A stretch of DNA of 64,000 nucleotides, taken from the UHGV virus genome UHGV-0180032. The stretch is one strand, 5' to 3'. Source of the DNA: a virus. This document shows, in pieces, positions 45,001 to 48,000 of the stretch (positions are counted from its first letter, which is position 1; each line of letters begins with the position of its first letter). A program made the position numbers.

Positions 45001-48000
45001 TGCCGGTTCCAGGCTGGATGTCGCAATTGGCGGGAAAATCAAAAGAGGCTCAGTATTCGATCGGGGCTAATCACAATTACAATAAAGATACGCTTATTAA
45101 CTATTTACGTTCCATAGGCTCTACTGCTGTCGTTGTGACCATTACAGGGGATTTAGTGTCTTATAGTAGCGGGGTTCCTTGTTTAGAGTTCCCTAGCAAT
45201 CTTCCAAATTCGTATATTACCCTCATCATCAATCCTGGGGTTACAGTATACGGCAGAGGAGGCAACGGCGGTTCTAACTCACCAGGCGGTGCAGGTGGAA
45301 CCGCAATACAGAACGGAATAGGAAACAGACTGCGTATAACCAACCGTGGCGCTATTGCCGGAGGCGGTGGCGGCGGTGGCGGCGGTAACAGGGGTAGACT
45401 AGTATTTGGTGGTGGCGGTGGTCGCCCATTCGGTGCTGGTGGGTCTTCCTCTCATATGAGTTCCGGTGCGGCTGCTGGTACTATTTCCGCTCCTGGTAGA
45501 GGATCTGTTGGTGAGGGGTCTCTTAGTGCATATACAGGCGGTTCGGGTGGTAATGTCGGTGCTGGTGGAGGAAGATGTAATACTCATGGTAACGGTACAG
45601 AATATAACGGCGGAGCAGCTGGTGCAGCTGTTACTGGTAATGCGCCAAGATGGGACGCAGTAGGTGCAATATACGGTTCACGTGTTTAATTAAAAAAGAG
45701 GGTAGATGGGGGTAGCGTCAGGATGGGTCGGTTCTTCGGCCAAGAGTGAAACGGGCGAACAATGGATGAGCGCTGCTGGTAGTAAATTAGGATTGGGTAG
45801 ACCTTTTATGATGAGCCAAATGGTAGGCAGGTCTGTAGGTTGCAAAATAGCAACAGCTTATTATAAAACGTCAAATACTGATAAGGTAGAGAACTGGGGT
45901 GCTGTCGGAGCCGATTGGCCGTTGGTAGATAAGAACAAAGGAACGCTTTCTGGTGCCTCGAACTGTGGCTTAGGACGTTTAGTGGGGATCGTACTTACGC
46001 AAGCTCACTACGTTGCCGGTGTTCCGCCTACTGCCGCTTTATATATTTCTGGCGGACGGGCGAGTAACATTACGGTGACGGTTGGTGGTGTTTCGCAAGC
46101 ATTTACTTACAATAGTGTTACTAACGGTTTTCACTATTATTGGCAAGGAACACCGAGTTCGGCCTTTATAGCGGCAATGAAGAAGACGGGTGTTACACAA
46201 GATTTGAAAATTAGCTAACTAATTGGGGTAAAACGATAACCAAAATTAGTAAAATAAGAATTCGTAATTCAATAATTTTTTATAGAAAGGTTGATTTATT
46301 AGAATCGGGGGGGGGGTGAAATGTTTTTAGCCAACATTTTATGTCTCCCCAATCATAGGAGGTAACCATACGTGGAACAATTCACGCCTGATTTGTCCTT
46401 AACTTCACTTAACATGGTTATTTCACTGGTTAACCATGACCTCCAGCTCGACTTGCAAGAGAACGAGGTTGAAGTCAGCGACGTAAAGACCAGTGACGAA
46501 ATGGATCGTGACACCACTGCTGTTGTAAAGATAAAACGTCCCGGTAACAGAACGTTACAAATCTATTACAACCGTTTAACCGCAGAACGTTGGTTAAACC
46601 AGCAACCTATTCTGGTACAAGTAGCTGGAGAGGGGTTTAACACACACGATTTAATCGACGGGATTAACGCAGCCTGTGGCAGTAACCTGCAACCTGAAGA
46701 TCTTCAGGACGATTCATTTACAGTAGGAAAAGACGCTGTAACGTTACAGGTATCACCTAACTCCCTAAGTTATAAAGGCCAATTCTCTGTTTTGGTTTTT
46801 GGTAACGGTGAAGAAGCCGCAGTAACAAAAGATGACAACCTAATCGTTACCGCAGATAATCGCGTCTTAACCTTTGGTGGTTAATAGTGGCTGACACGAG
46901 CTACCATCACTTTCAGAAGACATCACTATTAAGCGTCTTACAGGGACAACGCTTTCTCAGAACGGAATGAAATAAATATTAGGTAGTAGGGGCTAAGCCC
47001 CTACTACCTTTCTTTTTTTTTATTTTTTCTCAGATATATATTACCTAGAGGAGAGCGAAATTTACATTCGCTCTATTAGTTATAGCCGAAAGGAGGATTA
47101 GTTCTATCACCCGCATTATCTGTTCTGGTGAATTGGGCGAAGATAAATTAGTTGAAGATTACATTAAGAAGGAAGGGCAATTATGAAACCAAATACTACT
47201 AACGGCATTATGCTACTTTGTGATTCTGAAACGTTAGCAAATCGTATTCGTGGTTTGATGGAAGTACGTTGGAAGCAAAAGGTTCGCGTGGACTATGCTG
47301 CCCCGTTTGTTCACGTTACTTGGTTACCAGAAGCTGACGATTTTAGAGAAAAAATAACCACGAGAAGAATTAAAGATTGGTTATCAGCAATCATTAATAA
47401 ACAGATTACCGTTATCAATTTCCAACTTTTCGGTACCGCTGAAGAACATGAAATCTTGAAACAGTGTTTAAGAGCATTGGCTCTTTCCTTCTCTGTTCGT
47501 GGAAACTGTTACACGACTTATTTTATCGGTTCGCTTGAACTGTTTAAGAATACGCTAATGCTTCAGCTAAAAGACGACTACAAACTTTTAGATAAAATCG
47601 ATTTCGAATTCCCAGCAATGATTTAAGGAGTATAAAATGCATCAGAAATTAATGACTAGTAACAAAGTTCTCCGTTTTAACCAACGTGAGTTAGAAATTG
47701 GCGGAGAACGAATTGGTCGAGTTCGTAATCTTTTAACTGTGTTAGGTTTGGTCGGCGTTACATTTACATACACCGGTAAAATTCTTTACGCGACCTGGGC
47801 TTCATGCGAAAGTGACGCTACCTACGATAAAATTCTCGATGGTATTAAAGACGGCTCGGTTTATTGTAATGTTTTCCGTGGCGTTTCGTACATCGCTGGC
47901 GATAAGTTAATGGATAAACTGAAAGCCAAATACGGAGACGGTATTATCACCACCATCTTCTTTGGTGGCGATATGCTAATCGTAACGAAAAAGGAAATTA

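What the first reader, a model, noticed from the sequence alone, without database searches (positions are those of the whole stretch)
46304..46350. Second G10 element, with nested inverted repeat, upstream of fibre-associated paralogue
ATCG10 followed by AAATGTT..AACATTT and a C-run, about 25 nt upstream of the GTG start at 46372 in an otherwise AT-rich 150-nt gap. Same element class as at 40165 and 58101, again in front of a tail-module gene.
Basis: seen in the sequence. Interest (0 to 1): 0.5.

Follow-up and report, generated by a model that had tools for sequence, protein, structure and literature searches.

The report
Hairpin with a slippery G-run arm
The G10 run is real, but it is just the 5' arm of a conserved RNA hairpin sitting between two tail-module genes of an uncultivated giant phage; related phages keep the hairpin while the number of Gs drifts from 5 to 13, so it is most likely an ordinary between-gene hairpin rather than a special G10 switch.

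Summary
ATC-G10 (46304-46316), the nested repeat AAATGTT/AACATTT and the C-run are all present. G runs of 9 or more occur at three loci against 0.09 expected, all intergenic and all on the + strand.

The whole stretch 46308-46350 folds into one bulged 17-bp hairpin (-23.5 kcal/mol). It ends 6 nt before the AGGAGG of the GTG-started gene at 46372, a DUF7941 virion-protein paralogue.

The window is an SPN3US/Asesino-like jumbo phage known only from metagenomes. In 13 of 14 distinct related genomes the hairpin is kept at the same distance from the ribosome-binding site. The G-run is not kept: G5, G7, G9, G10, G13, or interrupted (GGAGGGGG, GAG7, G5AG4). Its length tracks the length of the pyrimidine 3' arm.

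The sibling sites behave alike. Site 40165 is G10 or a perfect GGGGGAGGT/ACCTCCCCC hairpin. Site 58101 is G9 to G11.

SPN3US and Asesino carry canonical terminators in the orthologous slots.

Best reading: an intercistronic RNA stem-loop of the terminator type, here without a U-tract. It probably acts as a transcript-boundary or stability element. Its G-arm became a hypermutable homopolymer through A-to-G change plus slippage. A phase-variable switch, a promoter and a mobile cassette are all poorly supported. Interest is low to moderate.

The parts
46303..46306 (+). AATC immediately 5' of the G-run. It is invariant in all 12 aligned homologues. Homology to relatives with a different upstream allele resumes at or within a few bases of this point.
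46307..46316 (+). G10 homopolymer, the 5' arm of the hairpin. Length is hypervariable among relatives (5, 7, 9, 10, 13, or interrupted by A).
46308..46314 (+). Outer stem, 5' side: seven Gs pairing with UCUCCCC at 46344-46350, including two G.U pairs.
   Evidence: minimum-free-energy and centroid structures agree
46316..46325 (+). Inner stem, 5' side (GUGAAAUGUU).
46326..46332 (+). Loop UUUAGCC. UAG is invariant across the homologues.
46333..46342 (+). Inner stem, 3' side (AACAUUUUAU). The TATG at 46339-46342 is not conserved.
46344..46350 (+). Outer stem, 3' side (UCUCCCC). This pyrimidine arm is anti-SD-like and would pair with the SD if the G-run had 4 Gs or fewer.
46357..46362 (+). Shine-Dalgarno AGGAGG, 6 nt after the hairpin base. 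The spacing is 6 nt in 11 of the 12 aligned homologues and about 8 nt in L047.
46372..46884 (+). Downstream gene, 170 aa with a GTG start. It is a DUF7941 / phrog_2935 virion structural protein and a paralogue of the 36151-36714 gene.
45706..46218 (+). Upstream gene, 170 aa: a Gp38_N adhesin-like paralogue. Its 3' part and the 84-nt spacer are replaced by another allele in most relatives.
40165..40195 (+). Sibling hairpin ATTG10-TAAGCTA-CTCCCCCCGAT, lying after the 944-aa tail protein gene and before the long tail fibre gene. Relatives have either G10 or a perfect GGGG(G)AGGT/ACCTCCCC(C) hairpin followed by AGATCTTTT.
58101..58126 (+). Sibling hairpin ATCG9-TGA-CCTCCCCCGAT: an 11-bp stem with a GUGA loop and a tail ATATTTCTCT. 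The scan calls it terminator-like. It precedes a second DUF7941-type gene. Relatives carry G9 to G11.
46981..47009 (+). Context: a canonical terminator (13-bp stem plus T-run) that ends the transcription unit after the 46372 gene.
47032..47045 (+). Context: the promoter-like motif AGATATATATTACC that follows that terminator. It is absent at the G-run sites.

Best explanation
The element is an intercistronic RNA stem-loop of the same general kind as the G/C-clamped terminator hairpins that punctuate this jumbo phage's co-directional gene arrays. When the fibre/adhesin operon is transcribed, the G-run pairs with the downstream pyrimidine arm (UCUCCCC) and the AU-rich inner repeat pairs with itself. 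Together they make one roughly 17-bp bulged hairpin that ends 6 nt before the ribosome-binding site of the DUF7941 paralogue. Because it has no U-tract, I infer that it does not terminate efficiently. I infer instead that it acts as a transcript-boundary or stability element: a pause or weak attenuator and 3'-exonuclease barrier for the upstream fibre-adhesin message, and/or a protective 5' structure for the last cistron. A side effect is that it keeps the anti-SD-like pyrimidine arm away from the SD. The G10 run is not a signal in its own right. It is a G-rich arm of the GGGGGAGG type that became a homopolymer through A-to-G transition, tolerated because G.U replaces A-U, and then began to slip. 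Selection acts on pairing, meaning enough Gs to cover the 3' arm, and not on an exact count. Shown: the hairpin, its conservation and fixed position, G-run variability, interrupted-arm variants, and canonical terminators at the orthologous slots. Inferred: action at the RNA level, the stability/attenuation role, and the origin by transition plus slippage.
For: (1) All 12 aligned homologues fold into the same long hairpin, dG -19 to -26 kcal/mol. 96.9% of pair cells are standard pairs, against 53-74% when the partners are slid. Substitutions are of the GU/GC/AU type. (2) The arms change together. L043 and L044 have G5 with a 3' arm ...UAUCCCCC. The window type has G9-13 with ...UAUGUCUCCCC. L047 has GGGGGAG opposite CUCCCC. 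(3) At site 40165 two relatives have a perfect GGGG(G)AGGT/ACCTCCCC(C) hairpin and two have G10 opposite a 3' arm that still carries the T. (4) At site 58101 all genomes that carry the hairpin have G9-11, which is just enough for the full 11-bp stem with a 4-6 nt loop. L038 instead has an unrelated hairpin, GGCGGtaaatCCGCC, in the same slot. (5) The orthologous slots in SPN3US and Asesino, and the window's own orthologue at 36151, carry canonical hairpin plus T8 terminators directly abutting the ribosome-binding site. (6) Many other intergenic gaps in the window hold G/C-clamped terminators; the scan finds 39 terminator-like sites against 18.9 expected. (7) In phiKZ, experimentally mapped terminators are conserved C-run/G-run hairpins, CCYCCCC..GGGRRGG plus TTAT (PMC10914365). 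(8) Folding variants from G3 to G14 shows that stability saturates at G9 and the SD is accessible from G5 upward.
Against: No U-tract follows the hairpin in any of the 12 aligned homologues, so the defining terminator feature is missing at this site. Covariation is not statistically supported: shuffles match the observed values and only one pair shows a two-sided change, because the sequences are close relatives. The hairpin travels with the downstream gene across two different upstream alleles. That fits a 5'-UTR role better than a 3' role for the upstream gene. One relative (L042) lacks it altogether, so it is dispensable or replaceable. No transcript data exist for this phage clade. The polymerase that transcribes these genes and its termination rules are unknown here.
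Confidence: 0.55

Rival explanations
1. Contingency locus or rheostat. The G-run is a hypermutable tract whose length is selected to vary. Changing hairpin strength or geometry would then switch or tune expression of the downstream tail-associated paralogue, as a form of bet-hedging in the host-range module.
For: Length differs among genomes that encode the identical protein: 10, 10, 10 and 7 at this site, and 9 to 11 at site 58101 with otherwise identical flanks. The overall range is 5 to 13. Modelled stability rises by about 10 kcal/mol from G5 to G9. Other G tracts in relatives sit at the start codon (G5/G8/G9, one out of frame) and at the SD (G11) of the adjacent adhesin-like gene. PolyG tracts in phage receptor-binding genes and phage contingency loci are documented (PMC12633550).
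Against: The tract is not in an ORF or a recognisable promoter spacer. In the commonly observed range of G9-13, the predicted structure and SD accessibility are unchanged. No natural variant reaches the only modelled off state, which needs G4 or fewer. Interrupted, non-slippery versions persist in several lineages. Length differences between assemblies may partly be homopolymer sequencing or assembly error; two contigs break at the run.
Confidence: 0.12
2. Promoter or transcription-start element for the phage's own RNA polymerase. Transcription of the DUF7941 paralogue would start at or in the element, making the hairpin the 5' end of the mRNA.
For: The element stays linked to the downstream gene across different upstream alleles, and AATC is invariant at its 5' edge. 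A TATG, the phiKZ late-promoter core (PMC7598289), lies at 46339-46342. Late promoters of these phages are otherwise hard to recognise.
Against: TATG is present in only 5 of 12 homologues; the others have TACG, TATC or TTCAC. All four bases are required in phiKZ (PMC7598289). No sigma-70-like site lies nearby. The clade's conserved AT-rich promoter-like motif AGATAKATATTAYC is absent here. L042 expresses the same gene without the element. Sequence upstream of AATC is not shared between the two alleles.
Confidence: 0.1
3. Recombination boundary, a PeSL-like module junction. The hairpin's main significance would be at the DNA level, as a short conserved sequence where tail-fibre/adhesin cassettes are exchanged.
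For: Homology between the window and 10 relatives breaks at about 45858-45923 and resumes at 46300-46311, the element's 5' edge. The element lies at the right-hand end of a mosaic fibre/gp38 region that includes a T-even-type adhesin. PeSL stem-loop cassettes mediate such shuffling in T4-type phages (PMC2839356).
Against: Only two upstream alleles are seen, with L042 as a third, so the coincidence may reflect one or two events. No promoter half is present. The element is single-copy: a covariance-model search of 235 kb of this clade finds no further copies, and the siblings score at the noise level. At site 58101 the flanks are collinear with no breakpoint.
Confidence: 0.1
4. Decayed, functionless remnant of a terminator, retained only because it is linked to a conserved gene start.
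For: There is no U-tract. It is absent in L042. Covariation is not significant.
Against: The hairpin is kept intact, with coordinated arm changes and fixed spacing to the SD, across genomes whose encoded protein has diverged to 76% identity. Unrelated hairpins occupy the equivalent slot elsewhere.
Confidence: 0.1

Closest known systems
Rho-independent (intrinsic) terminators, especially the conserved C-run/G-run hairpin terminators mapped in jumbo phage phiKZ (5'-BCCYCCCCHWWDGGGRRGGBYTTAT..., PMC10914365)
   Same: A stable stem built from complementary G-run and C/U-run arms. It is intergenic, co-oriented with the genes and placed between cistrons. The sibling sites 58101 and 40165 keep a short T-rich tail. 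Orthologous slots in SPN3US and Asesino hold canonical terminators.
   Different: The arm order is reversed, with the G arm first. At 46304 there is no U-tract or TTAT tail in any relative. An AU-rich inner helix is nested inside. The hairpin abuts the next gene's SD.
Intercistronic mRNA-stabilising or processing stem-loops (for example REP-type 3' barriers in malEFG, puf operon hairpins, T7 RNase III sites; from my own knowledge, not tested here)
   Same: A long imperfect hairpin inside a polycistronic unit, with no U-tract, at the junction of cistrons that probably need different dosage.
   Different: No evidence here for processing or differential decay. The responsible RNases and their access to phage mRNA are unknown for this clade.
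Phage polyG contingency loci (Fletchervirus receptor-binding genes with G7-11 tracts; T2/T4 contingency loci, PMC12633550)
   Same: A G homopolymer of 7-13 bases near host-range genes whose length differs between near-identical genomes.
   Different: Those tracts lie inside ORFs and act by frameshift. This one is non-coding, forms a hairpin arm, and is predicted to tolerate length change.
PeSL promoter/stem-loop cassettes of T4-type phages (PMC2839356)
   Same: A stem-loop at the edge of a replaced gene segment in a plastic region.
   Different: There is no promoter half and no family of near-identical copies. The boundary association is seen for one junction only.

Membership tests
Intrinsic (Rho-independent) terminator | A stable GC-containing stem-loop in the transcript | tested here: met
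   dG -23.5 kcal/mol, with minimum-free-energy and centroid structures agreeing. It is conserved in 12 aligned homologues.
Intrinsic (Rho-independent) terminator | A U-tract immediately 3' of the stem | tested here: not met
   The tail is AAUCAUAGGAGG in the window and AAYCRU.../UACCAU... in relatives. The terminator scan does not call it. Siblings 58101 (AUAUUUCUCU) and 40165 (GAUCUUU; AGAUCUUUU in relatives) meet this feature weakly.
Intrinsic (Rho-independent) terminator | Transcript 3' ends map to the site | not testable with these tools
   No RNA data are available for this phage clade.
phiKZ-type conserved terminator motif | A CCYCCCC-loop-GGGRRGG hairpin followed by TTAT | tested here: not met
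   The arms are G/C-run complementary but in the opposite order, and no TTAT tail is present (compared with PMC10914365).
Contingency locus / phase-variable homopolymer | A homopolymer of about 7 or more bases with length polymorphism among close relatives | tested here: met
   G7 against G10 with the identical downstream protein. G5 to G13 overall. G9 to G11 at site 58101.
Contingency locus / phase-variable homopolymer | A position at which a one-unit change switches expression (inside an ORF, or a promoter spacer) | tested here: not met
   The tract is intergenic. The only ORFs across it are mechanical ones on the minus strand, and run lengths differ by non-multiples of three. No promoter-like site lies nearby. 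Structure and SD accessibility are unchanged from G9 to G14.
Contingency locus / phase-variable homopolymer | Length heterogeneity within a clonal population, and a phenotype | not testable with these tools
   This needs raw reads or experiments.
PeSL regulatory cassette | A strong promoter adjacent to the stem-loop | tested here: not met
   No sigma-70-like site and no AGATAKATATTAYC motif occurs at 46219-46371.
PeSL regulatory cassette | Many near-identical copies dispersed in plastic regions | tested here: not met
   The covariance-model search of the window plus 13 loci (235 kb) finds only the orthologous site. The siblings score 10.7-11.7 bits.
PeSL regulatory cassette | Located at insertion or replacement boundaries | tested here: inconclusive
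   Homology resumes at 46300-46311 in 10 comparisons, but these represent about two alleles.
phiKZ-type late promoter | An invariant TATG overlapping the transcription start | tested here: not met
   TATG is present in 5 of 12 homologues only. The requirement is taken from PMC7598289.
Any Rfam family | A match at the gathering score | tested here: not met
   There are 0 matches in the window. Only chance-level hits occur at 46200-46400.

The most novel reading that the evidence does not exclude
The G tracts of this uncultivated jumbo-phage clade form a set of hypermutable loci concentrated in the host-range module. They include the hairpin arms at 40165, 46304 and 58101, and, in relatives, the SD and start codon of the Gp38_N adhesin-like gene. 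The non-coding hairpin tracts would act as slippage-tuned rheostats of attenuation or mRNA stability, and the start-codon tract would act as an on/off switch. This would be a non-coding form of phage contingency locus.
Probability: 0.1. Interest if true: 0.6.

Novelty: new member of a known kind. Interest (0 to 1): 0.25.

Why it matters
As it stands the result matters mainly for annotation. In this clade a long G-run upstream of a tail gene should be read as one arm of an intercistronic hairpin, not as a separate regulatory motif. Its exact length in an assembly is unreliable or unstable, and two contigs even break there. The data also give a clean natural example of how a structured RNA arm can turn into a hypermutable homopolymer while the structure is preserved: A-to-G change is tolerated as G.U, and slippage follows. 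If the minority reading were true, with the tract length tuning expression, it would extend phage contingency loci from coding frameshifts to non-coding RNA structure in a nucleus-forming-type jumbo phage. That would be of real interest for host-range bet-hedging.

Tried and rejected
- **Rfam and tRNA scans:** nothing was found.
- **Sigma-70 promoter scan:** no site lies near the element.
- **phiKZ-type TATG late promoter:** the motif is present in the window but not conserved.
- **Early-promoter-like motif AGATAKATATTAYC:** it occurs at four other + strand sites and is absent here.
- **Small leader ORF or coding role:** only mechanical ORFs cross the element, and the run length varies by non-multiples of three.
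- **Repeated or mobile element:** a covariance model found no further copies in 235 kb. L042 and L038 give no clean empty site because their upstream sequences differ.
- **Covariation statistics:** uninformative, because the relatives are too close and the changes are wobble-compatible.
- **Closer cultured relatives:** the phage collection holds none. DNA matches are limited to the gp38/fibre parts, and the DUF7941 protein is at most 37% identical.
- **Genome-contig scan:** found nothing.
- **Pfam on large neighbouring ORFs:** run to confirm phage RNA polymerase subunits in the window, but it gave no hits. Use of a phage polymerase is therefore inferred only from relatedness to SPN3US.
- **G-quadruplex:** considered and dropped, since a single G10 with no further G blocks nearby cannot form a stable intramolecular quadruplex (inference from the sequence).
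Full report
**What is in the sequence**

The finding's description is accurate.
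- ATC lies at 46304-46306 and G10 at 46307-46316.
- AAATGTT (46319-46325) and AACATTT (46333-46339) follow, then CTCCCC ending at 46350.
- AGGAGG lies at 46357-46362 and a GTG start at 46372.

The GTG is the first start after an in-frame TAA. It aligns with an ATG in several relatives.

The intergenic gap is 153 nt. Its first 84 nt are 23% GC, against 45% for the window.

G runs of 9 or more occur at only three places: 40168, 46307 and 58104. The expectation is 0.09, and no shuffle reaches the observed count. All runs of 7 or more are on the + strand. All three loci fall in the 6.3% of the window that is non-coding.

**Anatomy**

The G-run, the nested repeat and the C-run are not separate features. 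As RNA, 46308-46350 forms one bulged hairpin of about 17 bp (-23.5 kcal/mol; minimum-free-energy and centroid structures agree).
- Seven Gs pair with UCUCCCC, including two G.U pairs.
- One G is bulged.
- GUGAAAUGUU pairs with AACAUUUUAU around the loop UUUAGCC.

The two other sites are simpler versions.
- Site 58101-58126 is ATCG9-TGA-CCTCCCCCGAT, an 11-bp stem with a GUGA loop (z = -3.6). The scan calls it terminator-like.
- Site 40165-40195 has G10 opposite CTCCCCCC.

**Genomic setting**

The window is part of a jumbo phage related to Salmonella phage SPN3US and Erwinia phage Asesino.
- It carries a phiKZ-type 761-aa major head protein and the phrog_2871 tail protein.
- Its DUF7941 protein is only 31-37% identical to those phages.
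- DNA-level matches in the phage collection are limited to a T-even/Krischvirus-type gp38 adhesin and parts of the fibre.

The local gene order is:
- tail protein (37313-40147);
- the hairpin at 40165;
- a 1541-aa tail fibre;
- a gp38 adhesin;
- a Gp38_N paralogue (45706-46218);
- the hairpin at 46304;
- the DUF7941 protein (46372-46884);
- a strong terminator (46981-47009);
- a promoter-like motif (47032-47045).

The 46372 protein is an internal paralogue. It is 37% identical to the 36151 gene, and that gene is the orthologue (45%) of the SPN3US virion protein.

**Relatives**

Protein-anchored scans recovered related genomes of about 220-228 kb, plus shorter contigs, from IMG/VR, ENA, NCBI and Logan assemblies.

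At the 46304 site, 13 of 14 distinct relatives carry the element. L042 does not.

What is conserved:
- the AATC 5' edge;
- the hairpin, dG -19 to -26 kcal/mol in all 12 aligned homologues;
- a loop UAG;
- the 6-nt spacing to the SD, seen in 11 of the 12 aligned homologues (about 8 nt in L047).

What is not conserved is the G-run. Observed forms are G5 (twice), GGAGGGGG, GAG7, G5AG4, G7, G9 (twice), G10 (three times), GAG10 and G13. The G7 case encodes a protein 100% identical to the window's.

The run length tracks the 3' arm.
- G5 stands opposite UAUCCCCC(C).
- G9-13 stands opposite UAUGUCUCCCC.
- In L047 the interrupting A stands opposite the U of CUCCCC.

Pair-level statistics are honest but weak. 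96.9% of cells are paired, against 53-74% for slid partners. The changes are nearly all one-sided GU/GC/AU, and shuffles do as well.

**Sibling sites**

*Site 40165.* Two relatives have a perfect GGGG(G)AGGT-loop-ACCTCCCC(C) hairpin followed by AGATCTTTT. The window and one other relative have G10 opposite a 3' arm that still contains the T.

From this I infer the origin of the homopolymer. An A-to-G transition in a G-rich arm is tolerated because G.U replaces A-U. It fuses two G blocks, and the fused run then slips.

*Site 58101.* Genomes encoding the identical downstream protein, some with identical flanks, carry G9, G10 or G11. More distant relatives carry G10-G11. That is exactly the range giving the full 11-bp stem with a 4-6 nt loop. 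L038 lacks this hairpin but has an unrelated GGCGGtaaatCCGCC hairpin in the same slot, before an extra paralogue.

Two contigs start inside or at the G-run. This suggests the tract also breaks assemblies, so some length differences may be technical.

**What the slot is used for**

In SPN3US and Asesino, the position before the DUF7941 orthologue holds a canonical hairpin plus T8 terminator directly abutting the ribosome-binding site. So does the position after the tail protein gene. The window's own orthologue at 36151 has the same arrangement.

Many other gaps in the window hold G/C-clamped terminators. The scan finds 39 terminator-like sites against 18.9 expected.

In phiKZ, experimentally mapped terminators form a conserved family of C-run/G-run hairpins followed by TTAT (PMC10914365).

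The G-run hairpins therefore belong with this phage group's intercistronic terminator-type hairpins. The 46304 member differs in two ways. It has no U-tract in any relative. It also stays linked to the downstream gene across two different upstream alleles, with homology resuming at 46300-46311.

**Mechanism I commit to**

I read the element as an RNA stem-loop acting on the polycistronic fibre-adhesin-DUF7941 transcript as a boundary or stability element. It would be a weak attenuator or pause and an exonuclease barrier for the upstream message. It may also be a protective structure at the 5' side of the last cistron. The G-run is simply its 5' arm.

Folding variants from G3 to G14 shows that:
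- stability saturates at G9;
- the SD is accessible from G5 upward;
- only with G4 or fewer would the freed CUCCCC arm pair with the SD.

No natural variant is in that last state.

The hairpin, its conservation, the variability of the run and the terminator orthology are shown. The RNA-level role itself is inferred. Confidence is about 0.55.

**Rivals**

- *Phase-variable switch or rheostat (0.12).* It is favoured by the short-term length variation and by other G tracts in relatives: ATG followed by G5, G8 or G9 at the adhesin-like gene (one out of frame) and an SD replaced by G11. It is disfavoured by the non-coding, non-promoter position, the predicted insensitivity from G9 to G13, and the persistence of interrupted runs.
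- *Phage-polymerase promoter (0.10).* It is disfavoured because the TATG core is present in only 5 of 12 homologues, the clade's AT-rich promoter-like motif is absent, and L042 does without the element.
- *PeSL-like recombination boundary (0.10).* It has one coincident junction in its favour. Against it, there is no promoter half and no repeated family.
- *Functionless remnant (0.10).* It is disfavoured by the coordinated arm changes and the fixed spacing to the SD.

**Verdict**

The element is a new member of a known kind: an intercistronic, terminator-type hairpin whose G-rich arm has become a hypermutable homopolymer. Interest is 0.25.

The most novel reading not excluded is that the tracts form non-coding contingency loci in the host-range module. 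I give that a probability of about 0.1.

Noticed in passing
window 4910-4923, 25829-25842, 47032-47045, 50335-50348 (+); L001 about 12050-12063; L002 about 12058-12071: A conserved AT-rich motif, AGATAKATATTAYC, occurs 7 times against 1.0 expected. The four best copies each lie just downstream of a terminator hairpin and T-run. The same motif follows the tail-protein terminator in SPN3US and Asesino. It looks like the clade's early (virion RNA polymerase) promoter in a terminator-then-promoter cassette, the kind of ~10-nt AT-rich early motif described for jumbo phages in PMC7598289.
   Followed up: partly
window 44898-45689 and 45706-46218: An SPN3US-like jumbo phage carries a T-even/Krischvirus-type gp38 adhesin with 77-90% DNA identity to RB49, JSE and Phi1-type phages. 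It is followed by a second gene that shares only the Gp38_N domain. The fibre region is mosaic among relatives. This points to horizontal acquisition of a T-even host-range module by a jumbo phage.
   Followed up: partly
window 45706-45721; L004 2396-2410 (= L033 18049-18063); L040 about 1893-1905: The Gp38_N paralogue starts ATG followed by a G tract that reads G5 in the window, L041, L043, L044 and L047. It reads G8 (one extra Gly codon, in frame) in L004/L033. It reads G9 in L040, which puts the ORF out of frame with a stop after 13 codons. This is either a coding polyG contingency site or an assembly error.
   Followed up: partly
L046 about 1870-1905; L044 about 1850-1885; L045 about 1860-1885: Between the gp38-like gene and the Gp38_N paralogue, relatives carry further G/C-run hairpins just before the ribosome-binding site. 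L044 has GTGGGGGAGG...C9AC and L045 has GCGTGGGG...CCCCACG. In L046 the SD itself is replaced by a G11 run two bases before the ATG. G-rich functional motifs in this clade repeatedly turn into long G homopolymers.
   Followed up: no
window 57860-58096 and 58161-58691; L038 3320-3895: The 78-aa ORF upstream of the 58101 hairpin matches only the C-terminal part (109-177 of 177) of phrog_4862, the family of the full-length gene just downstream. In other genomes the upstream gene is a 178-aa DUF7941 protein, and L038 has an additional tandem copy. This is a small, dynamic array of tandem paralogues, and the window's upstream copy may be truncated.
   Followed up: partly
L059 position 1; L065 position 1: Two independent Logan contigs begin inside the 46304 element or exactly at the 58104 G-run. 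The tract or hairpin therefore breaks short-read assemblies, so G-run lengths in assemblies should be treated with caution.
   Followed up: no
L057 (NCBI GCA_004177895.1, contig AAABJM010000053.1): A 13-kb contig of this phage, with the identical DUF7941 protein and a G7 run, sits in an NCBI genome assembly rather than a metagenome. This may identify a cultured host or carrier strain. The organism name was not retrievable with these tools.
   Followed up: no
L009, L014, L015, L016, L020, L022, L029 (IMG/VR contigs unrelated to the window): The pattern scan pulled in a separate phage-like lineage (GC 0.43, no megablast hit in the phage collection). It has 7-10 G8-G12 tracts within about 7 kb on one strand. 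Homologous tracts differ in length between contigs, and reading frames change around the tracts. This may be a lineage with dense coding polyG contingency loci.
   Followed up: partly
L003, L004, L039-L041, L043-L047, about 25-50 nt upstream of the element: In the alternative upstream allele, a second small hairpin (TTTTCAAGC-nnnn-GCTTGAAAA, with variants such as TTTTCAAAC..GTTTGAAAA) sits between the upstream stop codon and AATCG. Most relatives therefore have two tandem hairpins in this gap.
   Followed up: no
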